Part shown: piece by piece, positions 12,525-46,449 of the stretch
How the letters are laid out: the number at the start of each line of letters is the position of its first letter
Numbering within the stretch: the stretch's first letter is position 1
Assembly (NCBI GenBank): GCA_041650835.1
Contig: JBAZKL010000003.1
Span: 291,682-355,681 of the forward strand
From: Candidatus Omnitrophota bacterium
GTDB taxonomy: Bacteria > Omnitrophota > Gorgyraeia > Gygaellales > Profunditerraquicolaceae
DNA length: 64,000 nucleotides
Reading direction: 5' to 3'
Position numbers and translations under genes: made by a program
The notes under the pieces: model-generated
What the model was told of the DNA's origin: nothing
The model's input: only the letters and a program-made list of their open reading frames with translations
Databases searched by the model: none

Positions 12525-12553
12525 TTGACTATTTCTCCTCGCTGTGGTATAGT
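12525..12553 (+). promoter_or_regulatory. Near-consensus sigma70 promoter (TTGACT-17 bp-TATAGT)
   Basis: TTGACT at 12525-12530, a 17-bp spacer, TATAGT at 12548-12553; no protein-coding ORF follows within about 700 bp. Confidence 0.5.
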
Positions 12554-12559
12554 ATAGTC

Positions 12560-14504: not shown

Positions 14505-14693
14505 GATCAACGGACGTACCCGGGTAAACGAGCAAGCAGAAACAACAATTGCAATCTCACGGTAAACTAAAACTGCAACGGTAATGCCATGGCGTTAAAA
14601 CGCAAGAATATCATGAAAATGGCATTAGTTGTGAGCTATTGGTGTTAATGAAGCGCTGTTTAACGCGATAGCTTGAAGGAGGTTGAGTAATCG

Positions 14694-16250
14694 ATGTTGA
14701 TGAATATAGTGCTTTTTATTGTTATTGCCGCAGTAGCGGCGTTTGTGGGGTATTTTTTAAGACGGTATGTTGCTGAAAAAAAGATCCAGGATGCCGAGAC
14801 CACCGTAAAACATATCCTGGAGCAGGGTAAAAAAGAAGTGGAAGACCGCCGCCGCGGCGCGGAGTTGGAAGCAAAGGACCTCTTGTACCGGATGAGGCAG
14901 GACTTCGAGAAAGAGACCAAAGACAGGCGGCAGGAAATATTTAATTTAGAGAAACGGCTTACCCAGAAAGAGGAGAATATCGACCGCAGGCTCGACCTTT
15001 TGGAAAAGAAAGAAAAAGAGATCGAGCAGCGCCAGGAAGGCGTGAAGCGGCAGGAAGAAGGCGTTAAGGCAAAGGACAACCAGCTGCATCAACTCATCGC
15101 GGAAGAGAAGGAGCGGCTGCAAAAGATCTCTTCGCTTTCCATCGAGGAAGCGCGGCAGATCCTGCTTTCCCGTTTAAGCGATGAATTAAATTCCGAGAAA
15201 GCGGTCTTGATAAAGCGGCAGGAAGAAGAGCTGCGCAGCAGCGCCGATAAAAAAGCCAAAGAGATCATCAGCCTTTCCATCCAGCGCTGCGCGGCGGATC
15301 ACGCGGTTGAGTCGACCGTAAGCGTTGTCACGCTTCCCAGCGATGAAATGAAAGGCCGGGTTATCGGGCGTGAAGGCCGTAATATCCGCGCTTTTGAAAT
15401 GGCGACGGGCGTCGATGTTATTATCGATGATACCCCTGAAGCGGTAACGCTCTCCTGCTTTGATACGGTACGCAGGGAAGTCGCGCGCTTGAGCCTGGAG
15501 AAGCTGATCAATGACGGAAGGATACACCCGGGGAGGATCGAAGAAGTCGTCGAGAAAACAAAGCAGGAGATGGATGAGAAGATCCGCGAGGAGGGCGAAC
15601 GCGCCGCGTTCGATGCCGGAGTCGACGGGCTGCATGTTGAAATAATCAAGCTGTTGGGCCGTTTGAAATACCGGACCAGCTTTGGCCAGAATGCCCTGCA
15701 GCATTCCAAGGAAGTATCTTTTCTTATCGGGGTCATGGCCTCGGAATTAGGGTTGGATTTTAAGTTGGCAAAGCGTATCGGCTTGCTGCATGATATCGGC
15801 AAGGCCGTTGACCATCAGGTTGAAGGCACGCACGCCAAGCTCGGCGCCGACCTGGCTAAGAAATTTAACGAGTCTTTTGAAGTCATACACGCTATTGAGG
15901 CGCATCACGAAGAAACTGAAGCGAAAAGTTTTTACGCTGTTTTAGCGGTCGCGGCTGATGCTATCAGCGCGGCCCGTCCCGGCGCCCGCAGAGAGACGCT
16001 TGAGACATACATTAAGCGGCTGGAGAAGCTTGAGTCCATCGCGAATGTCTTTAAAGGCGTGGAAAAGTCTTTTGCCATACAGGCAGGCCGTGAGATCAGG
16101 GTTGTCGTGCAGCCGGAAAAGATCTCGGATAATGACGCGGTCAACCTTGCCAGAGAGATCCGCAAGAAGATCGAAGAGGGCATGGAATATCCCGGCCAGA
16201 TCAAGGTGACCGTGATCCGGGAAACCAGGGCTATCGAGTACGCGAAGTAA
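14694..16250 (+). CDS. rny: Ribonuclease Y
   Basis: N-terminal TM helix, long coiled coil, KH domain ([12 protein letters not shown]) and HD domain (LLHDIGK). Confidence 0.9.
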
Positions 16251-16254
16251 TAAC

Positions 16255-16398
16255 AGGTTAAGTCTAAAGGTTAAAGTTTAAATAACAAAGGAAATTCAAA
16301 GGTCAAAGGGCCCTGCCTGCCGGCAGGTAATTTGAAATTTAACCTTAAATCTTTAACCTTGCTTTGTTATTTAGACTTTATACTTTAAAATTTAAGCA
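16255..16398. repeat. About 140-bp imperfect palindromic MITE-like intergenic element, copy 1
   Basis: TAAATAACAAAGGAAATTCAAAGGTCAAAGG...CCTTAAATCTTTAACCTTGCTTTGTTATTTAGACTTTATACTTTAAAAT with a central CCTGCCGGCAGG palindrome; related copies at about 20652-20762 and 27398-27650. Confidence 0.6.
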
Positions 16399-16401
16399 TA
16401 T

Positions 16402-17187
16402 ATGAATATACTCTTTATCGGCGATATCGTCGGAAGCCCCGGCAGGGCAGCGATCAAACAGCTGGTGCCCGTCCTTAAAAAGGAATACGCGCTTGATTTT
16501 GTGGTCGCTAACGCTGAAAACGCCGCCGGCGGCTCAGGAGTGAACGCCAGGGTAGCTGGTGAGCTTTTTGACGGCGGGGTTGACGTATTGACGACCGGCG
16601 ACCATATCTGGAAAAAGAAAGAAGTCTTTGAGATCATTCGGGAAGAACGGCGCATCGTGCGCCCGCTTAATTTCCCTCTGGGCGCTCCCGGTTATGGTTT
16701 TGGGATCTTTACCTTGAAGAACGGCGTAAAGCTCGGGGTGATCAATGTCCTGGGCAGGGTTTTTATGGAGCCGCTCGAATGCCCTTTCCGGACGACGCGT
16801 GAAGCAGTGGAGGAGATATCGAAAACAACGCGCAATATTATTGTCGATATCCACGCGGAGGCAACTTCGGAAAAAGTAGCGCTTGGGTGGTACCTTGACG
16901 GTAAGGTTTCGGCGGTCCTGGGGACCCATACGCATATCCAGACCGCGGATGAGAAGATATTGCCTCAAGGGACCGCGTACCTGACGGACGCGGGCATGAC
17001 GGGTCCGTATGACTCGGTCATCGGCAGAAGGGTCGAAGACGTCCTGGAAAAGTTCGTTACTTCGGTGCCGGTACGTTTCGAAGTCGCTGAAAATAATATC
17101 CAGCTTCACGGCGCGGTCATTGCGATCGACGATTCAACCGGCAAGGCGCAGTCGATCGTCAGAATACAAAAAAAGTTAAATGAATAA
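16402..17187 (+). CDS. ymdB: YmdB-like metallophosphoesterase (2',3'-cyclic-nucleotide phosphodiesterase family)
   Basis: MNILFIGDIVG...DFVVANAENAAGG calcineurin-like fold; sits directly downstream of rny as in the Bacillus rny-ymdB operon. Confidence 0.8.
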   Translation: MNILFIGDIVGSPGRAAIKQLVPVLKKEYALDFVVANAENAAGGSGVNARVAGELFDGGVDVLTTGDHIWKKKEVFEIIREERRIVRPLNFPLGAPGYGFGIFTLKNGVKLGVINVLGRVFMEPLECPFRTTREAVEEISKTTRNIIVDIHAEATSEKVALGWYLDGKVSAVLGTHTHIQTADEKILPQGTAYLTDAGMTGPYDSVIGRRVEDVLEKFVTSVPVRFEVAENNIQLHGAVIAIDDSTGKAQSIVRIQKKLNE

Positions 17188-19324
17188 TCTTAAAAAGATC
17201 TTTTTCTCCCGGCCTCAAAGCCTTATGTTCGCGTGTGCCCTTTACCTGGGCGCTTGTTTTTTTTCAAGGCCCTTTGCTCCCTTTGCTTTCGGGCAGGACA
17301 ACGACCTTGAATTCACGATTGATGTCTCATCCAATGTCAGCGTGCTCCCCTCGGTATTTAAGCCGAGCATCGACCTGAGCGGCCGCGGTTACCATAACGA
17401 TATTTCCTGGCCGCAGGAGCTCGCGGCGAAGAATGTCCTGGAATCATGGGCGACCGATGTCGGTTTCAAGGGCATGTACCGGCTGCAATACAACCTTTGG
17501 CAGATCAACCAGCTGGCTAAAGACAAAGCGGCGCAGGAAAAGCTTATCGCCAATTACGAATGGATCATTAAAAAAGTCAGCGACGCCGGCGGCACCGTTA
17601 TCCTGGACCTCTTCGGCATGCCTCCGGGCCTGGGGAAAGTCCTCGATAAAAAAAGCGCGCCCTGGAACCTGAACGCCTTTAAAAAGCTCGTCAAGAGCAG
17701 GATCAGGGATTTAAGCTGCAATAAGAAATATAATATCTGGTATGAAGTCTGGAGCGCTCCCGACCTGGGGGACTTTTTTTTAGGCAGAAAGCAGGAATAT
17801 TTAAACCTTTATAAAGCGGTCGCGGAAGCCGCGCGGGAACTTGAGAATGAGACCAAGGCCTCGATCCCCGTCGGCGGCCCGAGCACGAGCTGGTGGTTCC
17901 AGAACTTCGACGGTAACGCTATCGTTAACCCCGAGAACAGCCTGATCTATGAGCTGATCAAGTTTTGCTTCCGTTACAAATTGCCTCTGGATTTCATCTC
18001 CTGGCACGCGTATTCGACCGATCCTTCGGTAGAGCGCGAAATAACTTCATATAACAAGACGCCTCCGGCGCTCGTGCGCGACTGGCTCAGTTATTTTAAA
18101 CTGAATAAGGATATCCCGCTCATTGTCGACGAATGGAATTTCGACAGCGGCGATAATGTCCTTTCCGAACGCAAAGAAAATTCATTCGTCTGCGCCAGCT
18201 ATATCCCCAGCAGGATCAAGAACATGTATAAGGCGGGGCTTGATTACCAGCTGTTCTTTTCATTGGAAGATTTTCAGGACAATATGGAAGGGGTCAAACG
18301 TAACGTCGGCGTTTTCTGGTTTGAGCAGGATTCCCCGAATTACCAGGGAGGGCATAAGTCGATATATAATATGTTCCGCATGCTTTCAACCCTCGGTAAT
18401 ACTTTGGTGGCGTCATCTTCAAAGGCCGGCGACGAATTTATCGACCTCATAGCCACGAAAAAAGACAATGAAGTCGTTATCCTGGTCTATAATTATATCG
18501 ACCCGGATATTTTTACCAATTACCTGACGAGGAATATCGCCAGTTTGAATAAGGCCGAACGCGCCATTATGGTCAGTCTCCTGAGCCAGAACCAGCTCGA
18601 GAAGATCATGCGTAAGGAATTGGATTTCTCGCGCATGCACGCCCACAATAAGTATAACAAGGTTAAGAACATACTCAAGCGCGCCCAGGAATTAAACGAC
18701 CGCGCCACAAAATACAAGTTTTACGCGCGCAAGATCGATGTGACGGTCAAGAACCTTAACCGCCTGAGCGCCGCGGGGGATGCCCCCCGCCAGGAGCAGC
18801 CTTCTGCGGCGGCAGAGAAGGCGAAGTATATATACCAGCGTTATATTATTGATTCCTCCTGCAGCATGAATTGTAATTTTGTCCCTATCGAGGAAAAAGA
18901 GGTCGTGGTCAACGGCAATTACCGGGAATCATTTATCGTTAATCCCTATTCCGTCAATATGATCATTTTAAAGAAGAAGCCAAAGGAGCCTGAGCCGCCT
19001 GTAGTCGTTGTCGAAGAGCAAAAAGCCGTGGAAGCGCCTGCGGGTACTGTGGAATCAAATGGAGAGAAGCCTGTTGCTTCTGCCCCGGCGGCGCAAAACA
19101 ACGCGCCTGTTGCTCAGCAGCCTGAAGCTAGGAAAGCCCCTGCGGTAAAGAACGGGGCGGCCGCGCCTGCCGCGCAGGAGTTAACGGCTCCCGCGGCAAT
19201 AAAGAACGGCTTGGAGCATAAACCCGCGGCCCCGGCGCAGCCTGAAGCGAAGAAGCCGGTACCCGCCGCGGTGCTGAAAGATGAACCATCCGTTGATACG
19301 CAAACGCAAGAGCAGAGTGAATAA
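17180..19324 (+). CDS. Secreted hypothetical protein, possible glycoside-hydrolase-like domain, Pro/Ala-rich low-complexity C-terminal tail
   Basis: Signal-peptide-like N-terminus. Central region has TIM-barrel GH-like motifs (EVWSAPD, DEWNFDSG) but no firm family assignment. The C-terminal roughly 110 aa are P/A/E/K-rich. Confidence 0.4.
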   Translation: MNNLKKIFFSRPQSLMFACALYLGACFFSRPFAPFAFGQDNDLEFTIDVSSNVSVLPSVFKPSIDLSGRGYHNDISWPQELAAKNVLESWATDVGFKGMYRLQYNLWQINQLAKDKAAQEKLIANYEWIIKKVSDAGGTVILDLFGMPPGLGKVLDKKSAPWNLNAFKKLVKSRIRDLSCNKKYNIWYEVWSAPDLGDFFLGRKQEYLNLYKAVAEAARELENETKASIPVGGPSTSWWFQNFDGNAIVNPENSLIYELIKFCFRYKLPLDFISWHAYSTDPSVEREITSYNKTPPALVRDWLSYFKLNKDIPLIVDEWNFDSGDNVLSERKENSFVCASYIPSRIKNMYKAGLDYQLFFSLEDFQDNMEGVKRNVGVFWFEQDSPNYQGGHKSIYNMFRMLSTLGNTLVASSSKAGDEFIDLIATKKDNEVVILVYNYIDPDIFTNYLTRNIASLNKAERAIMVSLLSQNQLEKIMRKELDFSRMHAHNKYNKVKNILKRAQELNDRATKYKFYARKIDVTVKNLNRLSAAGDAPRQEQPSAAAEKAKYIYQRYIIDSSCSMNCNFVPIEEKEVVVNGNYRESFIVNPYSVNMIILKKKPKEPEPPVVVVEEQKAVEAPAGTVESNGEKPVASAPAAQNNAPVAQQPEARKAPAVKNGAAAPAAQELTAPAAIKNGLEHKPAAPAQPEAKKPVPAAVLKDEPSVDTQTQEQSE

Positions 19325-19334
19325 AAATAAAGAT

Positions 19335-20648
19335 ATGACTCATGACCTTTTTTCTCAACCCGGTGAAAAAAAACCTGACAGGCATGTTTTCTCGGTTTCG
19401 GAAATTACCCAGGGGATAAAATTCACCTTGGAAAGCACCTTTAACGAAATTTGGGTGGAAGGGGAGATCTCGGGAGTGTCGCGGATCTCTACCGGAACGG
19501 TTTTCTTCTCCCTTAAAGACGATAAAAGTATTTTGAAATGCGTGATATTCTATTCTTTTTCCCGCGCCCTTAAAGTTGAGATCAAGGACGGCATGAAGGT
19601 GATCTGTTTCGGGCGGGTGAGCGTTTATGAGAAAGACGGCAAATACCAGCTGTATGTCGAAAGCCTCGAGCCCAAAGGTATCGGGAGCCTGCAGCTGGCG
19701 CTGGAGCAATTGAAAGAAAAGCTGGAAAAAGAGGGATTGTTCGCCCCTGAGGGTAAAAAGCCCATCCCCTATCTTCCGTCGCGTATCGGGGTGGTGACCT
19801 CTCCGACGGGAGCGGCGGTCCGCGATATGCTCAAGGTCCTCAATGGGCGCTTTAAGGATGTGCATATCATTATAAATCCCGTGCGCGTCCAGGGGGAAGG
19901 CGCAAAAGAAGAGATCGCCCAGGCGATCGATGAGTTTAACCGCTGGGGAAATATCGACGTGATGATCGTCGGCCGCGGCGGCGGCAGTATTGAGGATCTA
20001 TGGGCTTTTAATGAGGAGATCGTCGCGCGGGCAATATACCGTTCAGCGATACCGGTCATTTCCGCGGTAGGCCATGAGCGGGACTGGACCGTCGCCGATC
20101 TTGTCGCCGATAAGCGCGCGGCAACTCCGTCGGTCGCGGCGGAAATGGTCATCCCTAAAAAAGAAGATTTACTGGAACAGCTCGAAGCTTTGGTAAAACA
20201 GCTTAAGAGATCGTTGTCCGATCTTTCTGTCGGCCTGCAGGAAGACTTGGACGGCTTGGCGCACCGGTTGCGCATAGCGTGCGATCACGCGCTGGAATTA
20301 AACGCGCGGCAGCTGGAATCGACGATAAAGAAGCTCTCTTTGTTGAATCCGGTTGTTTTGATCCCGCAATACAAGACAAAGGCGCTTGACCTGGCAAGGC
20401 AGATGTATGTCCTCCTCAGGCATTCGCTCGCGTTGAAAGAATCGGGTTTTACCAAGGCAATAGAAAAATTATCGAATTTGAATCCTTTGAATATCCTCTC
20501 GCGCGGCTATAGCGTTACTTTTAAAGTCCCCGGGTTAAGCGTTGTCAAAGACGCATCCGTGCTTAAGAAGGACGATGTTATTAAAACGCGGCTCCATCAG
20601 GGGAGCGTGATAAGTAGAGTGGAAGAAGTTGAGAAGGATGGAGAATAA
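19335..20648 (+). CDS. xseA: Exodeoxyribonuclease VII large subunit
   Basis: OB-fold N-terminus (VSEITQGIKFTLESTFNEIWVEGEIS) and the conserved catalytic core. Start set at the ATG giving MTHDLF because the upstream part overlaps the previous gene. Confidence 0.85.
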   Translation: MTHDLFSQPGEKKPDRHVFSVSEITQGIKFTLESTFNEIWVEGEISGVSRISTGTVFFSLKDDKSILKCVIFYSFSRALKVEIKDGMKVICFGRVSVYEKDGKYQLYVESLEPKGIGSLQLALEQLKEKLEKEGLFAPEGKKPIPYLPSRIGVVTSPTGAAVRDMLKVLNGRFKDVHIIINPVRVQGEGAKEEIAQAIDEFNRWGNIDVMIVGRGGGSIEDLWAFNEEIVARAIYRSAIPVISAVGHERDWTVADLVADKRAATPSVAAEMVIPKKEDLLEQLEALVKQLKRSLSDLSVGLQEDLDGLAHRLRIACDHALELNARQLESTIKKLSLLNPVVLIPQYKTKALDLARQMYVLLRHSLALKESGFTKAIEKLSNLNPLNILSRGYSVTFKVPGLSVVKDASVLKKDDVIKTRLHQGSVISRVEEVEKDGE

Positions 20649-20651
20649 GTA

Positions 20652-20762
20652 TAAAGGTTAAAGAACAAAGGAAATTCAAAGGTCAAAGGTTTAATTTTAA
20701 AATTTAACCTTAAATCTTTAGCCTTGCTTTGTTATTTAGACTTTATACTTTAGAATTAATAT
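20652..20762. repeat. MITE-like imperfect palindromic element, copy 2
   Basis: AAGGTTAAAGAACAAAGGAAATTCAAAGGTCAAAGG...TTAACCTTAAATCTTTAGCCTTGCTTTGTTATTTAGACTTTATACTTTAGAAT; same family as 16255-16398. Confidence 0.6.
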
Positions 20763-20797
20763 ACGGTTATATTCAGTGTAATAAACAGGGGGGAAGA

Positions 20798-21058
20798 ATG
20801 TCGGAAACAAAATTTGAAGACGCGTTAAAGAAGCTGGAAAAGATAGTCGAAGACCTGGAAAAAGGCGATTTGTCGCTCGATGAGGCGTTAAAGAAATATC
20901 AGGACGGCATTGAATTATCGCGCCTGTGCTCCCAGCGCCTGGATACGGCTAAGAAAAAGATCGATATGCTGGTCAAGAACAAAAAAGGCGAATTCGAATT
21001 AAAAGCCTTTGATGAGGGCCAGGTGGAAGAGGACGATGATAAAAAAAGAAATACCTAA
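20798..21058 (+). CDS. xseB: Exodeoxyribonuclease VII small subunit
   Basis: MSETKFEDALKKLEKIVEDLEKGDLSLDEAL is the typical XseB N-terminus; internal start of ORF 20729..21058. Confidence 0.8.
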   Translation: MSETKFEDALKKLEKIVEDLEKGDLSLDEALKKYQDGIELSRLCSQRLDTAKKKIDMLVKNKKGEFELKAFDEGQVEEDDDKKRNT

Positions 21059-22934
21059 ACCTTCTGTAGCTTCGTGCGGCTGCCGCGTCTCTCTTGATTC
21101 TATAGAGTGCCCCGCGGACCTCAAAAAGCTCACCTTTGACCAGTTGTCTCAATTGGCCGCGCAGGTGCGTAAACGCATGATCGATGTCGTTTCCAGGAAC
21201 GGAGGCCATTTGGCCTCCAGCCTCGGGACGGTGGAGTTGATCATGGCGCTGCATTATTGTTTTAACGCCCCTGAAGATAAGATCGTTTTTGACGTCGGCC
21301 ACCAGGCCTACGCGCATAAAATACTCACCGGGCGTAATAAGAATTTCGACAGCCTGCGCAAGCACCTGGGGATAACGGGCTTCCCCTGTAAAGAAGAGTC
21401 GCCCTACGATATTTTTACTACCGGACACTCCTCCAACGCTATTTCCCTGTCACTCGGGTTAGTCGCCGCCCGGGACAGCCAGAAGCAGTCGTATAGGGTT
21501 GCCGCGGTCATCGGCGACGGCTCCTTGAGCGGGGGCTTATGCTTTGAGGGCCTGAATAACGCGGGCCATCTGAAAAAAGACATCCTCATCGTTTTGAATA
21601 CCAATGAATTAAGTATCGCTCCTAATGTCGGCTCGTTAAGCACCTATCTGAACAAGGTCATTTCATTGCCGCTCTATAACCGTTTCAGGGATTCTCTTGA
21701 AGGCTTTGTGAAATCGCGTATCCCTAAAGGCCGCCGTTTGATCACCATCGCCAATAAATTCGAAGAAGGCCTGAAGGGGCTCTTTGTTCCGGGAATGCTC
21801 TTTGAAGAATTAGGCTTTCGTTATTTCGGCCCCTTCGACGGGCATAACCTGCATACGCTTATCCCGGCGCTCAAGAACATCCTGAATATTAAAGGGCCGC
21901 GCCTCGTGCATATCATTACGAAGAAGGGCAAGGGTTACGCGCCGGCGGAAAATGACCCGGTACGCTTTCACAGCGCCGGGCCTTTTGAAATAGCTACCGG
22001 AAAGCCTCTCGCCGGTGGATCTTCCGGGGCCAAGAGCTACACGGAAGTCTTCAGCAATAAAATTGTCGCTATGGCGGAGGAGAACCCCAGGATCGTGGCG
22101 ATCACTGCCGCGATGCCGGAAGGTACGGGCTTGGATAAATTCCGGGACCGTTTTCCTGAGCGCTTCTTTGATGTAGGCATTGCCGAAGCCCACGCGGTCT
22201 GTTTTGCCGGAGGATTGGCCGCCGGAGGCTTTAGGCCGGTCGTGGCGATATATTCTACTTTTCTGCAGCGGGCAATCGACCAGGTCGTCGAAGATGTGGC
22301 GCTGCAGAAATTACCGGTGGTTTTCGCTCTTGACCGCGCCGGCGTTGTTGGAGAAGACGGCGCGACGCATCAGGGTATTTATGATATCGCGTTTTTGCGC
22401 ACTATCCCGAACCTGACGATCATGGCGCCTGCCGACGCTGCGGAATTTGAGAAAATGCTTGAACTGGCTTGCGGCTCGGATATGCCGTCGGTGATACGCT
22501 ATCCTAAAGGAATATGCCCGGTCTCCGACCGGCAGGGGAGCGCTTTAGAAAAAGGCAAGGCTGAAGTGATCAGGACGGGAAAGAATTGCTGCCTGATCGC
22601 CTTAGGGAGCATGGTTACGGTCGCCTGTGAAGCAGCCGCCTTGTTAGAGAAGCAGGGAATTTCCGTCACGGTCATAAACGGGCGTTTTGTAAAACCATTG
22701 GACGTCGCTTTGTTTAAGGATGCCGCGGCAAAGTATAAATATATATTCAGTATAGAAGAAGGAGTCATCGACGGTGGTTTTGGCAGCGCGGTCAGCGAAG
22801 CGATCAATAAGCAGGTCGTCAGGATAGGGTTACCTTCGGAATTCCTTCAGCACGGAAAAAGAGAGATCTTGTTAGAGAAATACGGCTTGACGAAGGAAGG
22901 GATTGTTAAAGCGGTATTGCAGCATGTGCGGTGA
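21036..22934 (+). CDS. dxs: 1-deoxy-D-xylulose-5-phosphate synthase
   Basis: GGHLASSLGTVEL TPP-binding region and transketolase-like pyrimidine and C-terminal domains. Start approximate (MIKKEI). Confidence 0.9.
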   Translation: MIKKEIPKPSVASCGCRVSLDSIECPADLKKLTFDQLSQLAAQVRKRMIDVVSRNGGHLASSLGTVELIMALHYCFNAPEDKIVFDVGHQAYAHKILTGRNKNFDSLRKHLGITGFPCKEESPYDIFTTGHSSNAISLSLGLVAARDSQKQSYRVAAVIGDGSLSGGLCFEGLNNAGHLKKDILIVLNTNELSIAPNVGSLSTYLNKVISLPLYNRFRDSLEGFVKSRIPKGRRLITIANKFEEGLKGLFVPGMLFEELGFRYFGPFDGHNLHTLIPALKNILNIKGPRLVHIITKKGKGYAPAENDPVRFHSAGPFEIATGKPLAGGSSGAKSYTEVFSNKIVAMAEENPRIVAITAAMPEGTGLDKFRDRFPERFFDVGIAEAHAVCFAGGLAAGGFRPVVAIYSTFLQRAIDQVVEDVALQKLPVVFALDRAGVVGEDGATHQGIYDIAFLRTIPNLTIMAPADAAEFEKMLELACGSDMPSVIRYPKGICPVSDRQGSALEKGKAEVIRTGKNCCLIALGSMVTVACEAAALLEKQGISVTVINGRFVKPLDVALFKDAAAKYKYIFSIEEGVIDGGFGSAVSEAINKQVVRIGLPSEFLQHGKREILLEKYGLTKEGIVKAVLQHVR

Positions 22935-23090
22935 TCGGCTCTCGGTTATCAGCCAACACGGGTACCGAGCACCGAGTATCGAGCATCGATAATTGAGATA
23001 TGTGTCATTGCGAGGAGCCCGTCGAAGTTTTTCTGGCGGGCGACGAAGCAATCTTTTTAAACATGGCTAAAAAAACTATAGATAAGAAGC

Positions 23091-23128
23091 TAAGGTGACT
23101 GTCACGTTTTTTGTGACTGTCACCTTAG
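23091..23128 (+). terminator. Double-palindrome hairpin TAAGGTGACTGTCACG-TTTTTT-GTGACTGTCACCTTA (GGTGAC-N-GTCACC family)
   Basis: Inverted repeat with a T-rich loop, and each arm is itself a palindrome. Family members also at 23364-23386, 27319-27358, 27654-27693, 34455-34490 and 34990-35024. Confidence 0.5.
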
Positions 23129-23143
23129 CTGATCTCGTAAAAC

Positions 23144-23347
23144 ATGGCTAAGATAACCATAGATAAGAATAGATGTAAAGGCTGTCTTTTATGCATCCGC
23201 TTTTGCCCCAAGGGCTCATTGCTGGTGGATGAAGATTTAAATGCCCGGGGTATCCGGCCGGTCAAATTTAAAGATGATGCTGAGTGCCTGGGCTGTATGA
23301 TGTGCGCTCTCATGTGCCCGGATTGTTGTATTGAGGTTTTTAAATAG
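23144..23347 (+). CDS. korD: 2-oxoacid:ferredoxin oxidoreductase delta subunit (2x[4Fe-4S] ferredoxin)
   Basis: 67 aa with two CxxCxxCxxxCP clusters, immediately upstream of the alpha, beta and gamma subunits. Confidence 0.7.
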   Translation: MAKITIDKNRCKGCLLCIRFCPKGSLLVDEDLNARGIRPVKFKDDAECLGCMMCALMCPDCCIEVFK

Positions 23348-23414
23348 AAAGTCTCAAGTCGAAGCTCAGGTGACTGTCACCTGAGCTGTGCGACCTGTGA
23401 CCGGTGACTGTGCT

Positions 23415-24488
23415 ATGACTAAACGAATTCTAATGACAGGCAACGAGGCTATTGCTGCCGGAGCTCTCCAGGCGGGATGCCGCTTTTACGCGGGATATCC
23501 TATTACGCCTCAAAATGAGCTGATCGCCTATATGGCAAAATATATGCCGCAGGCAGGCGGAGTCTTCATCCAGGCGGAATCGGAATTGGCCGCGATCAAT
23601 ATGGTCTTCGGCGCATCTGCCGCGGGCGCGCGGGCGATGACTTCATCATCCAGCCCGGGGATGAGCCTGAAGCAGGAAGGCATCTCTTATATCGCGGGCG
23701 CTGAGTTGCCCGCGGTGATCGTGAACATGATGCGCGGCGGCCCCGGATTAGGCAATATCGCTCCTTCCCAATCGGATTATTTTCAGGCGACCCGCTGCGG
23801 GCACGGCGATTACCATTCGATCGTTTTAGCGCCTGCAACGGTGCATGAAGCCTATTATGGCATGAGAGACGCCTTTGATCTGGCGGATAAGTACCGTACC
23901 CCCGTTATTGTCCTGGGAGACGGGATGCTCGGTCAGATGATGGAGCCTTTAGAGCTCACTCAGGCAGCAGCTGAAAGTAGCGAGTATAAAAAAGACTGGG
24001 CATTGAGCGGATGCGCCGGCCGGCCGGCCAATGTCGTCAAATCGTTTTATTTGCATGAAGGAAAATTAGAGGAATTTAATTTACTTTTACAAAAGAAATA
24101 CAAGCGTATCAAAGAAAAAGAGCAGCGCGCTGAAAGTATCCTGACGGATGATGCCGAGATCATTTTGGTCGCCTATGGCTCAATGGCGCGGATCGCTAAA
24201 ACCGCGGTGAAAACTTTACGCGCTCAAGGCGTCAAAGCCGGATTGATCCGGCCGATCAGCTTATGGCCTTTTCCCGAAGCCGTATTCAAGAAATTAGCTG
24301 CCGGCAGGAAAAAAAGGTCGTTACTGGTTGTGGAAATGTCCTATGGACAAATGATCGAAGATGTCCGCTTATCAATAGGCGATAGGTTCCCGGTTGAGTT
24401 CCTGGGGCGCGGCGGCGGCGGAGTGCCGTCGGAAAAAGAGATCATCGTCAAGGTTAAGCATTTAACAGGCAAAAAATCACATCGATGA
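23415..24488 (+). CDS. korA: 2-oxoacid:ferredoxin oxidoreductase alpha subunit
   Basis: MTKRILMTGNEAIAAGALQAGCRFYAGYPITP is typical of the KorA/PorA N-terminus. Confidence 0.85.
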   Translation: MTKRILMTGNEAIAAGALQAGCRFYAGYPITPQNELIAYMAKYMPQAGGVFIQAESELAAINMVFGASAAGARAMTSSSSPGMSLKQEGISYIAGAELPAVIVNMMRGGPGLGNIAPSQSDYFQATRCGHGDYHSIVLAPATVHEAYYGMRDAFDLADKYRTPVIVLGDGMLGQMMEPLELTQAAAESSEYKKDWALSGCAGRPANVVKSFYLHEGKLEEFNLLLQKKYKRIKEKEQRAESILTDDAEIILVAYGSMARIAKTAVKTLRAQGVKAGLIRPISLWPFPEAVFKKLAAGRKKRSLLVVEMSYGQMIEDVRLSIGDRFPVEFLGRGGGGVPSEKEIIVKVKHLTGKKSHR

Positions 24489-25213
24489 ATAAAATATACA
24501 GCCACCCTCGAGCGTTACGCGCGTCATCCACGCACTATTGTCCCGGCTGCGGGCATGGGATAGCGCACCGGCTTGTCGCTGAAGTTATTGACGAGCTGGG
24601 CATCCGGGAGAGCGTGATCGCGGTAGCTCCCGTCGGCTGCGCGGTGGTCGCCTATGATTATTGGGATTTTGATTGTTCGGAAGCAGCGCACGGCCGGGCG
24701 CTGGCTGTGGCAACCGCGATAAAGCGCGTGCGGCCGCGGAATATTGTCTTTACCTATCAGGGCGACGGTGATCTGGCGGCGATAGGGACTAATGAGACTA
24801 TCCATGCCGCCAACCGCGGAGAAAAACTGACCGTCATTTTTATCAATAATGCCATTTACGGGATGACCGGCGGCCAGATGGCGCCGACAACGCTTTTGCA
24901 GCAAAAGACGGCAACGACCCCGCTGGGCAGGGACGCCGCGCTGCAGGGGTATCCGCTCAAAATCTCAGAAATGCTGGCTTTGTTGAACGGCGTTAAATAT
25001 GTCGAACGTGTTTCTATGCATTCGCCGCAGGAAGTAGTAAAAGCTAAAAAAGCGATTAAGCAGGCGTTCCAGAACCAGATCGACGGTATCGGCTTCTCGC
25101 TGGTCGAGGTGATATCTCCGTGCCCGACGTATTGGGAGATGCCGCCGGCGCAGGCCCTTGATTGGATAAAGAATACTATGCTCAAAGAATTTCCTTTAGG
25201 ACGGATCAAATGA
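24485..25213 (+). CDS. korB: 2-oxoacid:ferredoxin oxidoreductase beta subunit (TPP-binding)
   Basis: YCPGCGHG motif and GDG TPP-binding region; start overlaps the korA stop. Confidence 0.85.
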   Translation: MNKIYSHPRALRASSTHYCPGCGHGIAHRLVAEVIDELGIRESVIAVAPVGCAVVAYDYWDFDCSEAAHGRALAVATAIKRVRPRNIVFTYQGDGDLAAIGTNETIHAANRGEKLTVIFINNAIYGMTGGQMAPTTLLQQKTATTPLGRDAALQGYPLKISEMLALLNGVKYVERVSMHSPQEVVKAKKAIKQAFQNQIDGIGFSLVEVISPCPTYWEMPPAQALDWIKNTMLKEFPLGRIK

Positions 25214-25776
25214 CGGAGAAGATCATTATCGCCGGCGCCGGAGGACAGGGTATCATGCTTTTAGGCAAGATCCTGGCAGAGGCCGCGATGCGGGAAAACC
25301 GCTTTGTTACCTGGCTGCCCGCGTATGGCGCCGAAGTCAGGGGCGGGACAGCGCATTGTATGGTGATTATTTCCGATGAAGAGATCGGCTCTCCTTCGAT
25401 CAGTGTCGCCGACAGCTTGATCGTCATGAACGCTCCTTCATACGCGCGTTTTAAGCCGCGGCTTAAAACGAAAGGCCTGCTGGTGGGAAACAGTACTTTG
25501 GTGAAGAATAATTTAGCTGTGCATTCTTCTGATTTATGGTATCCTTTTACGGATATCGCCTTGAAGCTGGAGAATGTGAAAGTGGCGAATATGATCGCGT
25601 TGGGGTGCTTTATCGCCCGGCGCCCTATCGTTGAAGTTGAGAATATCGCGCGGGTGATCGAGGAAATAGCCCCCGCGCACAAAAAAGACCTCATTGAGAT
25701 AAATAAACGGGCGCTCTCAGCCGGTATCGCGCTCGTTACAGAGGCAAATAAAAAGTCAGGAGAAAAAAATGGTTAG
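25210..25776 (+). CDS. korC: 2-oxoacid:ferredoxin oxidoreductase gamma subunit
   Basis: MTEKIIIAGAGGQGIM gamma-subunit motif; start overlaps the korB stop. Confidence 0.8.
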   Translation: MTEKIIIAGAGGQGIMLLGKILAEAAMRENRFVTWLPAYGAEVRGGTAHCMVIISDEEIGSPSISVADSLIVMNAPSYARFKPRLKTKGLLVGNSTLVKNNLAVHSSDLWYPFTDIALKLENVKVANMIALGCFIARRPIVEVENIARVIEEIAPAHKKDLIEINKRALSAGIALVTEANKKSGEKNG

Positions 25777-27100
25777 GGTACGCTTTGCTCCCAGTCCGAC
25801 GGGAAATCTGCACATCGGCGGAGCGCGCACTGCGTTATTTAATTGGCTTTACGCGAAAGCAAAAAAGGGAATATTTGTTTTAAGGATAGAAGATACCGAC
25901 CGGGAGCGTTCAAAGAAGGAATACCTGGATGAGATCGTATACAGCTTGAAATGGCTGGGTTTTGAGTGGGATGAGATCTATTATCAGAGCGAGCGCTTTG
26001 AGATCTACCACCAGTACGCCAAAAAGCTGGTTGACGCGGGTTTAGCGTACGTGGCTTCCTCCGATGATGAACAGGCGCAGAAGATCGTTAATAAAAAACA
26101 AGATGCCATAATTTTTAAGGTCACACCCCAGAAGATCAAGATCAATGACCTGATCAGGGGAGAGATCGAGTTTGACGCTGAAACCATCAAAGACCAGGTC
26201 CTGATCAAATCCGACGGCACGCCGACCTATAATTTCGCCTGCGTGGTCGATGACGCCCAAATGAAAATAACTCATGTTATCAGGGGCGACGACCATATTT
26301 CCAATACTCCCAAGCAGATACTTTTATATAAAGCGCTGGGGTTCCCGGTGCCGGAATTCGCGCACCTTCCTTTAATATTATCAAAGGCAGGCGGCAGGCT
26401 TTCTAAGCGTAAAGGCGCCACCGCGATCTCGGAATTCCACGCGATGGGCTATCTTTCCGCGGCGCTGGACAATTATTTACTGCTCCTGGGATGGTCTCCG
26501 GGAGGAAACCGCGAGATCGTCAGTATGGATGAAGCGATCAAACTCTATGACCTGAAGAATATCAATAAGACAGCGGCGGTGCTTGACCTGGATAAGCTGG
26601 ACTGGATGAACAACCAGTATTTGAAAAATGAGGACCCTGAGAAGTTGACCGATGAAGTTATCCCTGCGTTAGTTGAGAAGAAATATATCGATAAAGATAA
26701 TTTTGATAGAAATTATGTGGTTTCTTTGGTAAAATTGTTCCAGGGGAGGCTTACGACGATCAGCGATTTTGCCGATTGGGCGGATTTCTTCTTTGTGCGG
26801 GAGCCGGTGATCGACCCGGCGGCGCAGGAGAAATTCTTATCGAAAGACCTCTCAAAAGAGTTCGGACTTTTTATTAAAAGGCTGGAGAGCTTAGAGGTTT
26901 ACGATATTGCCAATATTGAAGCGGGTTTCCGCGCGATGGCAAAGGAGCTCGATCTTGAGCCTAAGGTTTTAATTCATCCGATCAGAGTGGCCCTTACCGG
27001 CAAGACCATCGGCCCGGGCCTTTTTGAAGTTATCTATTATTTAGGTATAGAGCGGGTAAAAGCGCGGCTGGGTAAATTTATAAAAAAGGAGCAGGGATGA
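25769..27100 (+). CDS. gltX: Glutamyl-tRNA synthetase
   Basis: Class I HIGG (LHIGGART) and KMSKS-like (RLSKRK) motifs. Confidence 0.9.
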   Translation: MVRVRFAPSPTGNLHIGGARTALFNWLYAKAKKGIFVLRIEDTDRERSKKEYLDEIVYSLKWLGFEWDEIYYQSERFEIYHQYAKKLVDAGLAYVASSDDEQAQKIVNKKQDAIIFKVTPQKIKINDLIRGEIEFDAETIKDQVLIKSDGTPTYNFACVVDDAQMKITHVIRGDDHISNTPKQILLYKALGFPVPEFAHLPLILSKAGGRLSKRKGATAISEFHAMGYLSAALDNYLLLLGWSPGGNREIVSMDEAIKLYDLKNINKTAAVLDLDKLDWMNNQYLKNEDPEKLTDEVIPALVEKKYIDKDNFDRNYVVSLVKLFQGRLTTISDFADWADFFFVREPVIDPAAQEKFLSKDLSKEFGLFIKRLESLEVYDIANIEAGFRAMAKELDLEPKVLIHPIRVALTGKTIGPGLFEVIYYLGIERVKARLGKFIKKEQG

Positions 27101-27276
27101 AGACGAAGGGATTATGTATCGCTTTAGGCCTTTTTTACTGTCTGGTGTTGCTCGGCGGTTGTAACACGGTATGTAAGACCACCAAAGGCGCGGCAGAAGG
27201 CGCCAAAGAAGGCGTAAAAGAAGACTGGAAAGCGGCGCAGGGCGCTGACGCCTGGATGAAAAAGAATTTGTGGTAG
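27097..27276 (+). CDS. Small putative lipoprotein (59 aa)
   Basis: ATG overlaps the gltX stop (ATGA). Signal peptide with lipobox LLGGC and a Lys/Ala-rich mature part; below the ORF-track size cutoff. Confidence 0.4.
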   Translation: MKTKGLCIALGLFYCLVLLGGCNTVCKTTKGAAEGAKEGVKEDWKAAQGADAWMKKNLW

Positions 27277-27318
27277 GGTTGTAGATACCAGGCTTCGCTA
27301 TTCTCTGTAATTGTTTAA

Positions 27319-27365
27319 AGCAAGGTGACTGTCACGCTGTTTGTGATTGTCACCTTGCTTTTTTT
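27319..27365 (+). terminator. Rho-independent terminator GCAAGGTGACTGTCAC-GCTGTTT-GTGATTGTCACCTTGC + T7
   Basis: 16-bp stem of the GGTGAC-N-GTCACC family followed by a run of 7 T; it terminates the gltX and lipoprotein transcript. Confidence 0.6.
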
Positions 27366-27397
27366 AGAGTAGTTCATTTTTATATAGCTGCGCGCGA

Positions 27398-27650
27398 GCA
27401 AAGTCTAAAGTATAAAGTCTAAATATCAAAGGAAATTCAAAGATTAAAGATCAAATTTTAAATTTCCTACCTGCCGGCAGGAAGAATCAAAGCCATGTCA
27501 TTCCCGCGAGCCCGCAAAAGCTTTAGTGGCGGGCGAAAGCGGGAATCCAAAGAAATGCAAGAATAAAGGTTCAATTTTAAAATTTAGCCTTAAGCCTTAA
27601 ATCTTCCTTTGTTATTTATACTTTAGACTTTAAAATTAACCACATCATAT
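27398..27650. repeat. MITE-like imperfect palindromic element, copy 3, with about 90-bp internal insertion
   Basis: Arms match copies 1 and 2 (CAAAGGAAATTCAAAG...CCTTAAATCTTCCTTTGTTATTTATACTTTAGACTTTAAAAT). Centre contains CCTGCCGGCAGG plus an extra hairpin TGTCATTCCCGCGAGCCCGC...GCGGGCGAAAGCGGGAAT. Confidence 0.5.
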
Positions 27651-28014
27651 CAAAGCAAGGTGACTGTCACGCTTTTTGTGACTGTCACCTTGCTTGCCCT
27701 AAAATAACTCTTAAATGATACCATGAAAGTGCTATAATACGCATATGTGACACAGGGGGGACAATGAAGCTGGACTTGGTCAATTTTTAGGCAATCTTCT
27801 ATGCAGGTAGGGGGTTGCCGTTTTTGTTATGATGATTAAGTGATGTGTTACCCGAATTCCCCCATGCTGCCGAGATGGGCATATAATGAGATTTATATCG
27901 CTTGTAGGGATGGCTTGTTCTGTCCCCACAAATGGAAAAGGGACTACTCTGGGTTTAGGAAAATATGACTGTAACCCAATAATAAAAGATTAAATTTCTC
28001 AAAAAGGTGGAACT

Positions 28015-29052
28015 ATGAATGAAAAATGTCCTAATTGTGGTAATCCATTTGAAGGTAATAACCTACAAAAATGTTTAAAATGTGGCATTGATATTTTACA
28101 ATATACTCGAGAGAAATTAGAAGAAATGGAAAATGAGAAAGAATTATTAGTAAATAATGAAAGGCGGATAGCGAATAATATTTTTCAGAAAACTTGGAAT
28201 AAGTTAATCAAGGTGATATGGTTTTGGATTGGTGTTATTGTAGTTTTATGGGGGTTTGCAGTTGGGCTTAGTTTAAGAGAAATCTATAAAAATGTAGTAA
28301 ATGTTACTAAGAATCAAATTATAGAACTTATAACTAAACAATTTGAAGAGCCTCGCATAAGACAAACTTTAACTGAGGTAGCTAATACTGAAGCCGAAGA
28401 TATTCTTGCAAATCAAGTTCGACCAGAAATAGATAGTTTTAAAGAAGGAATAAACAAAGAATTAGATTCAGTTAAACGATTTTCAGAGGATTTAAAAACA
28501 AAATATACAATTGATTATAACACTTTTAATCTTGAAGTTGCTAAATTAAAAGACCGAAACAGGCTAATAGAATTGGGGGATATGGTTATTGCAAACAGAG
28601 ATGTGGCTGCTTATAAAGAATTGGAGCGCATTGCTAAAGATTCTGTAAAACCAGAATTGATGTCGGCGGCAGTGTCAGAAATAAAGCGAGTTAAGGTATT
28701 TTTTGCGACAATGACTAGTGTGAAAGGGGCGTCTATTTCATATAAAGGTCCCCTGGGGAGTGAATTAAAAGATAATGATATGACTAGGGATAGACTTATT
28801 TTTAATTTAAAGAATGATAATTGGTTAATTAGGGTAAAAGCAGCTCAATTGCTTCAGGGTAAAAAAGAAAAAAGTTCCGCAGAAGCCCTTTTAGAAAGTA
28901 TGAATAATGATCCTGATATGGAAGTAAGAAAAGAAGCTTTGGAATCATTTGATGCGATAACAGGGCACATAAGCAATGATGTCTTTGGTTTTGAAGCCGC
29001 GAATGAATGGTGGACTCAAAATAAGTTCGAGGTTGATAAAAAATTAAAATAA
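28015..29052 (+). CDS. Hypothetical protein: N-terminal zinc ribbon, one TM helix, C-terminal HEAT-like repeats
   Basis: CPNCGNPFEGNNLQKCLKCG zinc ribbon, a hydrophobic segment (VIWFWIGVIVVLWGFAVGL), and C-terminal LIRVKAAQLL / EVRKEALESF HEAT-like units. AT-rich compared with the flanking core genes. Confidence 0.45.
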   Translation: MNEKCPNCGNPFEGNNLQKCLKCGIDILQYTREKLEEMENEKELLVNNERRIANNIFQKTWNKLIKVIWFWIGVIVVLWGFAVGLSLREIYKNVVNVTKNQIIELITKQFEEPRIRQTLTEVANTEAEDILANQVRPEIDSFKEGINKELDSVKRFSEDLKTKYTIDYNTFNLEVAKLKDRNRLIELGDMVIANRDVAAYKELERIAKDSVKPELMSAAVSEIKRVKVFFATMTSVKGASISYKGPLGSELKDNDMTRDRLIFNLKNDNWLIRVKAAQLLQGKKEKSSAEALLESMNNDPDMEVRKEALESFDAITGHISNDVFGFEAANEWWTQNKFEVDKKLK

Positions 29053-46433: not shown

Positions 46434-46449
46434 AATTTAAGGAGTAAAA

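What the first reader, a model, noticed from the sequence alone, without database searches (positions are those of the whole stretch)
16255..27650. Three copies of a roughly 140-bp MITE-like imperfect palindrome downstream of rny, xseA and gltX
Copies at about 16255-16398, 20652-20762 and 27398-27650 share arms of the form TAAATAACAAAGGAAATTCAAAGGTCAAAGG ... CCTTAAATCTTTAACCTTGCTTTGTTATTTAGACTTTATACTTTA. Their 12-bp outer stems match perfectly. Copies 1 and 3 share a central CCTGCCGGCAGG palindrome, and copy 3 carries an extra roughly 90-bp internal hairpin module. Each lies in the spacer immediately 3' of a gene. The family resembles miniature inverted-repeat transposable elements or ERIC/BIME-type mosaics, and may add mRNA 3' stabilising structures.
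Basis: seen in the sequence. Interest (0 to 1): 0.55.

Follow-up and report, generated by a model that had tools for sequence, protein, structure and literature searches.

The report
Small palindromic mobile repeat in Omnitrophota
Three copies of an AT-rich, 115-245 bp hairpin-forming repeat were inserted into formerly compact gene junctions of an uncultivated Omnitrophota bacterium; it is an ordinary kind of small non-coding mobile repeat (MITE/ERIC-like), unusual only in having arms built from 7-base units.

Summary
Three related imperfect palindromes lie at 16253-16397, about 20645-20759 and 27398-27639. They are 81-83% identical to each other, all in the same orientation, and far beyond chance. 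The window comes from a 370-kb Candidatus Omnitrophota metagenome contig, about 8 kb from dnaA.

Two syntenic relatives lack all three copies and have compact junctions there. At rny|ymdB the closest relative has a 3-nt spacer (ATA), and that triplet flanks the 145-nt insert in the window. This is a clean empty site with a 2-3 bp target duplication. A fourth copy lies upstream of atpB in another Omnitrophota MAG, at an unrelated locus.

No copy has an ORF, an Rfam match or terminator features. The arms are degenerate heptamer arrays (NNTAAAG)n. Copy 3 carries a nested module from a second repeat family and is bracketed by hairpins of a third.

Best reading: a low-copy, non-autonomous, MITE-like palindromic repeat, closest in behaviour to ERIC and Correia elements but unrelated in sequence. 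No transposase was found, the genome-wide copy number is unknown, and any effect on mRNA or promoters is inferred only. Interest is modest.

The parts
16253..16397 (+). Copy 1 (145 nt), between the rny stop codon (16248-16250) and the ymdB start codon (16402). It has a left purine-rich arm, a central CCTGCCGGCAGG and a right pyrimidine-rich arm.
   Evidence: Absent from relatives L011 and L023.
16250..16252 (.). Left copy of the ATA triplet flanking copy 1 (putative target-site duplication). It overlaps the last base of the rny stop codon.
   Evidence: blastn blocks L011 4280-7267 = window 13267-16252 and L011 7265-9908 = window 16398-19041 share L011 7265-7267. Sequences shown.
16398..16400 (.). 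Right copy of the ATA triplet flanking copy 1.
20645..20759 (+). Copy 2 (about 110-115 nt), the shortest form, with the simple apex AATTTTAAAATTT. Its left end overlaps the xseA stop codon (20646-20648); xseB starts at 20798.
   Evidence: The spacer is 54 nt in L011 and the genes overlap in L023.
27398..27639 (+). Copy 3 (242 nt): left arm plus half apex (27398-27465), inner insert (about 27466-27564), then full apex plus right arm (27565-27639).
16316..16327 (.). Central perfect palindrome CCTGCCGGCAGG in copy 1.
   Evidence: 3 matches at 1 or fewer mismatches against 0.05 expected.
27470..27481 (.). The same palindrome CCTGCCGGCAGG at the start of the inner insert of copy 3.
27494..27549 (+). 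Nested GC-rich double hairpin CATGTCATTCCCGC...GCGGGAATC inside copy 3. It belongs to a separate repeat family, also seen at 12446-12510, about 13050-13118(-) and about 30767-30797(-).
27317..27360 (+). Hairpin GGTGACTGTCAC-N7-GTGATTGTCACC of a third repeat family, followed by T7. It is terminator-like, lies after the lipoprotein gene, and forms the left bracket of copy 3.
27652..27695 (+). Second copy of the same hairpin (95% identical), forming the right bracket of copy 3.
16364..16391 (+). Outward-facing promoter-like site TTGTTA-16-TAAAAT in the right arm of copy 1. Equivalent sites are at 20729-20756 and 27609-27636.
   Evidence: 9 of 12 consensus matches. This is a consensus match only, in AT-rich DNA.

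Best explanation
The three copies belong to a low-copy family of small, non-coding, almost fully palindromic mobile repeats (MITE-like, in the ERIC/Correia/RUP class) found in a subclade of Candidatus Omnitrophota.

Each arm is a degenerate array of 7-nt units (NNTAAAG on the left, its complement on the right). The basic form is about 115-130 nt (copy 2 and the copy in the other MAG). Copy 3 is that form with a nested insert at the apex, made of CCTGCCGGCAGG plus a hairpin module of another repeat family. Copy 1 looks like a deletion derivative of the copy-3 form.

Shown: the elements entered ancestrally compact, probably translationally coupled junctions (rny|ymdB, xseA|xseB, and after the gltX-lipoprotein pair) in the window's lineage. 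At the one clean junction they duplicated 2-3 bp (ATA or TA).

Inferred: they were mobilised in trans by a transposase not encoded nearby. They are co-transcribed with the flanking operon genes and fold into a long AU-rich hairpin, which loops the insert out of the mRNA. The right arm may supply an outward sigma-70-like promoter for the downstream gene. Their persistence is more likely tolerance than function.
For: - Real repeat family.
- Hairpin folding beyond shuffles.
- No ORF longer than 35 aa in copy 3, and no Rfam family.
- Relative L011 (xseA 86% aa, collinear at 82-87% nt) has a 3-nt rny|ymdB spacer. Its ATA aligns to both flanks of the 145-nt insert.
- The outgroup L023-L025 (xseA 68% aa) is also syntenic with compact junctions: 17 nt at rny|ymdB, overlap at xseA|xseB, and 24 nt after the small gene. 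This polarises the events as insertions.
- No profile hit in L011, L012, L019 or L023-L025.
- A fourth copy (74-81% identical) lies 63 nt upstream of atpB in another Omnitrophota MAG, at a non-homologous locus and in the opposite orientation to transcription. The relative carrying a 93%-identical atpB lacks it.
- Copy 1's junction with ymdB is reproduced in an independent assembly (Logan SRR8542065).
- 7-nt periodicity of the arms: autocorrelation 0.55-0.62 at lag 7 against about 0.1-0.3 at lags 2-5 (0.37-0.51 at lag 1).
- The promoter-like site is conserved in all three right arms.
Against: - Only one junction gives a clean empty site, and a 3-nt flank match in AT-rich DNA could arise by chance (a few per cent).
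- The exact termini are uncertain. The outermost bases of the arms do not pair well.
- No transposase or IS with matching ends was found in 82 kb. The window's only recombinase is a large serine recombinase of an unrelated island.
- The copies are few and clustered within 11.4 kb, with none in 18 kb of extra flank.
- The exact core occurs at only one other locus across the GTDB species representatives and JGI metagenomes. There is therefore no sign of a burst.
- At xseA|xseB the relatives carry other A-rich heptamer-like sequence (L011 TCAAAGTCAAAAGTAAGG; L012 an A4G/CT4 array). Copy 2 could therefore have arrived by recombination into related sequence rather than by transposition.
- Transcription, RNA processing and promoter activity are untested.
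Confidence: 0.6

Rival explanations
1. Spread without a transposase. Heptamer simple-sequence arrays arise by polymerase slippage and become inverted. The resulting hairpins are then copied between AT-rich spacers by template switching or gene conversion, acting locally within about 11 kb.
For: - Period-7 arrays dominate the tandem repeats of the window (17 of 37 TRF rows). The arms themselves are heptamer arrays.
- Relatives carry unrelated A-rich heptamer-like sequence at the same xseA|xseB site.
- The copies are clustered.
- Other repeats in the window are bracketed by long direct duplications: 38 nt around the hairpin at 23087, and 44 nt around copy 3.
- Over-representation of heptamer SSRs in bacterial intergenic regions, sometimes as inverted pairs, is documented and attributed to slippage (PMC4692102).
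Against: - The rny|ymdB empty site has no heptamer sequence to recombine with. It shows a precise 145-nt insertion with a 3-nt duplication.
- A copy 74-81% identical over about 125 nt sits at an unrelated locus in another genome. In-situ slippage cannot produce that.
Confidence: 0.2
2. A selected regulatory cassette. In this reading the hairpin is kept because it acts in the operon mRNA, for example as an RNase III or RNase Y processing site, as a 3' stabiliser of the upstream cistron, or as an uncoupler that supplies a promoter for the downstream gene.
For: - All three window copies have the same orientation with respect to transcription and start within 121 nt downstream of a stop codon.
- The folds are stable.
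- 3 of 33 consensus pairs show changes on both sides that keep pairing among the 4 copies.
- A promoter-like site is conserved in each right arm.
- ERIC and Correia elements have such effects (PMC3184786).
Against: - The elements are absent from close relatives that have the same operons, so they are not needed for those genes.
- The copy in the other MAG is upstream of atpB in the opposite orientation.
- There is no U-tract or GC-rich stem, so no terminator is predicted at any copy.
- Same-strand orientation is uninformative, because every gene in this region is on the + strand next to oriC.
- Four sequences give almost no power for covariation, and 21 of the 33 pairs never vary.
Confidence: 0.13
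3. An assembly artefact, in which repeats are wrongly joined into these spacers.
For: Short-read assemblies do break at these repeats. The Logan contig starts inside the right arm of copy 1, and by length arithmetic it should end near copy 2. That far end was not fetched.
Against: - The same junction sequence (right arm to ymdB) appears in an independent sample and assembler.
- The ENA contig carries all three copies, and a second large contig (435 kb) encodes the identical XseA with mostly the same neighbouring proteins. Its DNA was not shown, so the copies there are unconfirmed.
- The flanks are collinear with relatives on both sides of each copy.
Confidence: 0.02

Closest known systems
ERIC / IRU (enterobacterial repetitive intergenic consensus, about 127 bp)
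   Same: - An imperfect palindrome over nearly its whole length.
- Non-coding and sited in transcribed intergenic spacers.
- Flanked by TA.
- Present or absent at a given site between relatives.
- Can alter the fate of the flanking mRNA (PMC3184786).
- From my own knowledge, size variants with internal insertions or deletions also exist.
   Different: - No sequence similarity (no blastn match in 5,426 E. coli genomes).
- Much more AT-rich (20-35% GC).
- Arms built from 7-nt units.
- Different phylum.
- Apparently low copy number.
Correia / NEMIS elements of Neisseria (about 104-157 bp MITEs)
   Same: - Small, non-coding, with inverted-repeat ends.
- Functional outward promoters reported (PMC3184786).
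- Found inside operons.
- From my own knowledge: a TA target duplication, and long RNA hairpins that are processed.
   Different: - Correia elements have 26-bp TIRs around a distinct core with an IHF site, and hundreds of copies.
- Here the whole element is a palindrome of heptamer arrays, copies are few, and no IHF site or promoter activity has been shown.
REP / BIME / REPIN
   Same: - Intergenic palindromes.
- Occur in mosaics with other repeats, as copy 3 does with two further hairpin families.
- REPINs are long hairpins formed by two inverted units.
   Different: - REPs are short (20-40 nt) and GC-rich, occur in more than 100 copies, and are associated with RAYT transposases without target duplication (PMC2817692 abstract).
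- This element is AT-rich, has 50-65-nt arms and a 2-3-bp flanking duplication, and no RAYT was seen nearby.
Intergenic heptamer simple-sequence repeats (Xanthomonas GGGAATC, Nostoc GGGGAYT, Calothrix STRR)
   Same: - 7-nt unit arrays in intergenic spacers, also between operon genes.
- Variable between close relatives.
- Occasionally arranged as inverted pairs (PMC4692102).
   Different: - Those are near-perfect tandem arrays that vary in place.
- Here the arrays are degenerate, always paired as a palindrome, and the whole 115-145-nt unit is copied between unrelated loci.

Membership tests
MITE (generic, as defined in PMC3184786) | Small (less than about 400 bp) with no transposase ORF | tested here: met
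   115-242 nt. The longest ORF inside copy 3 is 35 aa.
MITE (generic) | Terminal inverted repeats; folds into a long hairpin | tested here: met
   Arms of 50-65 nt at 75-78% complementarity. Fold z = -4.5 to -6.4.
MITE (generic) | Flanking target-site duplication | tested here: inconclusive
   One clean site has ATA (or TA) duplicated at 16250-16252 and 16398-16400. The other three sites have no alignable empty allele.
MITE (generic) | Multiple dispersed copies in a genome | tested here: inconclusive
   3 copies in 82 kb, all within 11.4 kb. One copy lies at an unrelated locus in another MAG. The remaining about 290 kb of the contig and the rest of the genome could not be read.
MITE (generic) | Presence/absence polymorphism at orthologous sites | tested here: met
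   L011 and L023-L025 are syntenic and lack all three copies. L019 lacks the atpB-upstream copy.
MITE (generic) | A parent IS or transposase sharing the termini | not testable with these tools
   No transposase appears among the called genes or Pfam scans of the 82 kb.
ERIC | Sequence homology to the enterobacterial consensus | tested here: not met
   No blastn match to E. coli complete genomes at E <= 1e-3.
REP / BIME / REPIN | Short GC-rich palindromic units, high copy number, RAYT association | tested here: not met
   GC is 20-35% against 44% for the window. Copy number is low. No RAYT or Y1 transposase is seen in the annotated 82 kb.
Intrinsic (Rho-independent) terminator | GC-rich stem followed by a U-tract | tested here: not met
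   No terminator-like site was called at any copy. The stems are AU-rich and end in CUUUAAAAUU.
Any Rfam RNA family | Covariance-model match | tested here: not met
   Nothing at gathering scores. Only a chance-level snoRNA hit at E = 0.96.

The most novel reading that the evidence does not exclude
These are not transposase-driven MITEs. They would instead be a distinct class of heptamer-array hairpins that Omnitrophota genomes generate and copy by slippage or template switching. Once inside an operon they would act as modular uncouplers: the hairpin would replace translational coupling, and the right arm would provide a promoter for a nearly leaderless ymdB (the -10 element ends 10 nt before the ATG at 16402).
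Probability: 0.1. Interest if true: 0.6.

Novelty: new member of a known kind. Interest (0 to 1): 0.3.

Why it matters
Small palindromic repeats are well known in cultured Proteobacteria, Firmicutes and cyanobacteria. A full-text search found no paper combining Omnitrophota with MITEs.

This locus gives a clean before-and-after picture. A streamlined, conserved gene block next to oriC had its intercistronic junctions expanded by at least three or four small repeat families in one lineage. Several of these junctions were previously tight or overlapping.

If the family proves to be widespread, it would be:
- a handy strain marker;
- a cause of assembly breaks in Omnitrophota MAGs, as already seen;
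- a natural test of how operons tolerate 150-nt hairpins between tightly spaced, possibly translationally coupled genes.

As it stands, this is a routine addition to a known class of elements.

Tried and rejected
- **Rfam.** Nothing at the copies, either at gathering scores over the whole window or at E <= 1 over 16100-27800.
- **Terminator scan.** No site at any copy.
- **Exact-core scans** (CAAAGGAAATTCAAAGNTNAAAG) of genome contigs, metagenome contigs and viral contigs. Only one further real locus was found (L002 = L005 = L006). The other hits are chance matches, most inside apparent coding sequence. A Cyclobacteriaceae hit has a similar style but only weak similarity, E = 1e-5 after ascertainment by the pattern.
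- **Extending the window** by about 10 kb to the right and about 8 kb to the left. No further copies.
- **Search for a parent transposase in the window.** None was found, only a large serine recombinase belonging to a defence island.
- **The spacer of L012 at the copy-2 site.** It looked like a diverged ortholog, but its fold is no better than shuffles (z = -0.75), nhmmer gives E = 0.45-1.1, and its motif is absent from the window. I treat it as unrelated A-rich heptamer sequence.
- **Empty-site test for the atpB-upstream copy.** The relatives diverge completely beyond about 50 nt upstream of atpB, so no junction can be defined.
- **** was a mis-specified fold_alignment (left arms only) and gave nothing.
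- **BLAST against E. coli genomes and plasmids.** No match.
- **One look-up failed:** the protein at 567-1127 is not on record.
Full report
**Source and setting**

The window is part of ENA metagenome contig ERZ27247363 k141_2542458 (369,946 bp). XseA homologues identify the organism as Candidatus Omnitrophota. dnaA and dnaN lie about 8 kb to the left of the window start, and every gene from there to about 36 kb is on the + strand.

The genes around the finding are confirmed:

| Gene | Coordinates |
|---|---|
| rny | 14694-16250 |
| ymdB-type metallophosphoesterase | 16402-17187 |
| GH39-like gene | (between ymdB and xseA) |
| xseA | 19281-20648 |
| xseB | 20798-21058 |
| dxs | (follows xseB) |
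| ferredoxin and vorB-type 2-oxoacid:ferredoxin oxidoreductase genes | (follow dxs) |
| gltX | 25769-27100 |
| 59-aa lipoprotein gene | 27097-27276 |

**The observation**

The three copies are real.
- The 16-mer CAAAGGAAATTCAAAG is exact in all three. A 25-nt right-arm probe matches five arms at 3 or fewer mismatches, against 0.00 expected.
- A profile of the copies scores 111, 107 and 70+45 bits on the + strand. The reverse strand scores about half as much, so the two arms can be told apart and all three copies point the same way. Nothing else in the window matches.
- Pairwise identity is 81-83%.
- They are the three longest local inverted repeats in the window.
- As RNA they fold at -48.7, -32.9 and -69.3 kcal/mol, with z = -6.4, -4.5 and -4.7 against dinucleotide shuffles.
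- Refined limits are 16253-16397, about 20645-20759 and 27398-27639.

The 12-bp stem is perfect only in copy 1. Copy 3 follows the small lipoprotein gene and a terminator-like hairpin, not gltX directly. The extra material in copy 3 is about 100 nt.

**Anatomy**

The left arm is purine-rich (65-67% purines) and the right arm pyrimidine-rich. GC is 22-35% against 44% for the window.

Both arms are degenerate arrays of 7-nt units, TCTAAAG GTTAAAG TTTAAAT AACAAAG ... and the complement. AAAG and CTTT recur at spacings of 7, 14 and 11 nt. Autocorrelation peaks at lag 7 (0.55-0.62) and again at lag 14, compared with about 0.1-0.3 at lags 2-5 (0.37-0.51 at lag 1).

A mismatched internal loop is conserved in every copy: GAAATTC on the left lies opposite AACCTTG/C on the right.

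The copies represent three structural forms:
- Copy 2 has the simple apex AATTTTAAAATTT.
- Copy 3 has that apex on both sides of an insert of about 100 nt. The insert begins with CCTGCCGGCAGG and contains a GC-rich nested hairpin, CATGTCATTCCCGC...GCGGGAATC.
- Copy 1 keeps CCTGCCGGCAGG but has lost the rest of the insert and the left half of the apex.

I infer that the 115-130-nt form is basic, that copy 3 is a nested derivative, and that copy 1 is a deletion derivative of the copy-3 form.

The nested hairpin belongs to a separate repeat family seen at 12446-12510, about 13050-13118(-) and about 30767-30797(-). Copy 3 is bracketed by two 95%-identical hairpins of a third family, GGTGACTGTCAC-N7-GTGACTGTCACC. 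Other copies of that family lie at 23087, 34447 and 34982. Copy 3 is therefore a true mosaic.

**Relatives and empty sites**

Two sets of syntenic relatives were fetched through XseA.

L011 (NCBI GCA_041662125.1, XseA 86% identical) is collinear with the window at 82-87% nucleotide identity. The profile finds no copy in it.
- Its rny stop and ymdB start are 3 nt apart: GCGAAATAATATATGAATATAC.
- The window reads GCGAAGTAATA[145 nt]ATATATGAATATAC.
- The two BLAST blocks overlap on L011 7265-7267, so ATA is present on both sides of the insert. This is a clean empty site with a 3-bp (or TA) duplication.

The outgroup L023-L025 (XseA 68% identical, three MAGs) has the same gene order and compact junctions:

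| Junction | L023-L025 |
|---|---|
| rny / ymdB | 17 nt |
| xseA / xseB | overlapping |
| after the small gene | 24 nt |

The long spacers are therefore derived in the window's lineage.

At xseA|xseB the comparison is less clean. L011 has a 54-nt spacer containing TCAAAGTCAAAAGTAAGG. L012 (XseA 93% identical) has a 126-nt spacer with A4G/CT4 heptamers that is unrelated to copy 2 and does not fold better than chance.

Downstream of the lipoprotein gene the relatives are not alignable with the window.

**Copies elsewhere**

Exact-core scans of 185,579 species-representative genomes, the JGI metagenomes and IMG/VR found one further real locus, seen three times (L002 = L005 = L006).
- The MAG is labelled Planctomycetales, but its AtpB homologues are all from Omnitrophota.
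- The copy there is 74-81% identical to the window copies.
- It lies 63 nt upstream of atpB, downstream of a GAF-ANTAR gene, and in the opposite orientation to transcription.
- L019, whose AtpB is 93% identical, lacks it but has a quite different 640-nt spacer, so no junction can be defined.

About 18 kb of extra flank around the window holds no more copies.

A Logan contig from another sample (SRR8542065) begins inside the right arm of copy 1 and continues into ymdB. This confirms the junction independently and shows that short-read assemblies break at the repeat.

**What it is not**

- No Rfam family matches.
- No terminator-like site is called at any copy.
- There is no ORF of note.
- It has no similarity to E. 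coli genomes, and hence none to ERIC, and none to plasmids.
- No transposase is encoded in the 82 kb examined.

**Interpretation**

The best-supported account is a low-copy, non-autonomous palindromic mobile repeat of the MITE class. It meets the definition in PMC3184786 on size, lack of a transposase, inverted-repeat arms, hairpin folding and presence/absence between relatives. The target duplication rests on a single site. Copy number and the parent transposase remain open.

In behaviour it is closest to ERIC, which is also a nearly complete palindrome that sits between co-transcribed genes, has size variants and is flanked by TA. It also resembles Correia elements.

Functional effects are inferred only. 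Because copies 1 and 2 sit in junctions that are tight or overlapping in relatives, the downstream genes must still be expressed. Expression could continue by read-through of a hairpin that loops the insert out. Alternatively it could start from the promoter-like TTGTTA-N16-TA(A/G)AAT site present in every right arm. That site is only a 9/12 consensus match in AT-rich DNA.

Three of the 33 consensus pairs show double changes that keep pairing among the four copies. This is too few to argue for selection on structure.

**Rival explanations**

- Spread by slippage, template switching or gene conversion of heptamer arrays. Heptamer arrays are abundant in this genome and in the literature, and heptamer-like sequence sits at the copy-2 site in relatives. 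However, this does not explain the precise insertion into TAATATATG or the copy in another genome.
- A selected regulatory cassette. This is weakened by the absence of the elements from close relatives and by the opposite orientation at atpB.
- An assembly artefact. This is excluded by the independent assembly.

**Verdict**

This is a real but ordinary kind of element: a new member of the small palindromic intergenic repeat class, in a phylum where none seems to have been described. Its heptamer-array arms and its nesting with other repeat families are the only unusual points.

Noticed in passing
window 23087-23130, 23361-23380, 27317-27360, 27652-27695, 34447-34491, 34982-35026 (partial copies near 30860, 34377, 34936): A second repeat family: the hairpin GGTGAC(T/A)GTCAC-N7-GTGAC(T/A)GTCACC, found in both orientations. 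Some copies are followed by a T-run and look like terminators. Each arm is itself the palindrome GTGACnGTCAC, so the sites could also be protein-binding sites. All copies are absent from relative L011 at the orthologous spacers.
   Followed up: partly
window 23051-23088 and 23132-23169: A 38-nt direct repeat (84% identical) brackets the hairpin at 23087-23130. It duplicates the 5' end of the ferredoxin gene (ATGGCTAA..ATAGATAAGAA). This is a long duplication around a small hairpin insertion, with an unexplained mechanism. Copy 3 of the finding is likewise bracketed by 44-nt direct repeats.
   Followed up: no
window 12446-12510, about 13050-13118(-), 27494-27549, about 30767-30797(-); L019 1085-1140: A third repeat family: an outer stem (G)TCATKCCCGC...GCGGGMAT that encloses a variable inner hairpin. 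One copy is nested inside copy 3. A similar module lies next to a CCTGACTGCCGTCAGG palindrome in another Omnitrophota contig.
   Followed up: partly
window 9739-9768, 10540-10565, 12363-12436, 22962-22989, 30834-30852, 34418-34446: Heptamer tandem arrays (ACCGAGC/CGATAAC type; CAAGACA x3.7) are the dominant tandem-repeat class: 17 of 37 TRF rows have period 7 or 14. The same CAAGACA unit occurs in L019.
   Followed up: partly
window 12361-28015 compared with L011 and L023: Many intergenic spacers of a conserved gene block are expanded in this lineage. Lengths in window / L011 / L023: pheT|6S 906 / 401 / 414 nt; rny|ymdB 151 / 3 / 17; xseA|xseB 149 / 54 / -1; dxs|fdx 209 / 67 / 1; lipoprotein|next gene 738 / 440 / 24.
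   Followed up: partly
window 12578-12737: 6S RNA gene (Rfam RF00013, 62.7 bits), conserved in L011.
   Followed up: no
window 40836-64000 and beyond (L013): tRNA-Glu is followed by a large serine recombinase (41258-42853, minus strand) and a run of defence genes: type I R-M (43638-49157), an OLD-like TOPRIM/AAA ATPase, SbcCD-like genes, a TIR-domain protein and a ParB-methyltransferase. This looks like an integrated defence island.
   Followed up: no
window 35236-35345 and 36231-36340: A 110-nt direct repeat (96% identical) starts in the 3' end of tRNA-Gln (35169-35242). It encloses small ORFs that include a Gp49-like (DUF891) protein. This may be a small integrated cassette with att-like repeats.
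   Followed up: no
window 27730-27829: An extended -10 element (TGCTATAAT), a Shine-Dalgarno sequence plus an 8-codon ORF (MKLDLVNF), then a terminator-like hairpin at 27790-27819 with a T-run. This could be a small RNA or a leader peptide downstream of copy 3.
   Followed up: no
L002 (CAZPNW010000135.1): The MAG is labelled 'uncultured Planctomycetales bacterium', but its AtpB homologues are all annotated as Omnitrophota/Omnitrophica. The label is probably a taxonomy-mapping error.
   Followed up: partly
L004 2283-2381 (Cyclobacteriaceae MAG JBGSTJ010000005.1): An AT-rich imperfect palindrome built from TTCAAAG/TTTAAAG-type heptamers shares the 23-nt core by exact match. The profile gives E = 1e-5, which is biased because the locus was found through the pattern. 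It is either chance or a distant cousin in Bacteroidota.
   Followed up: no
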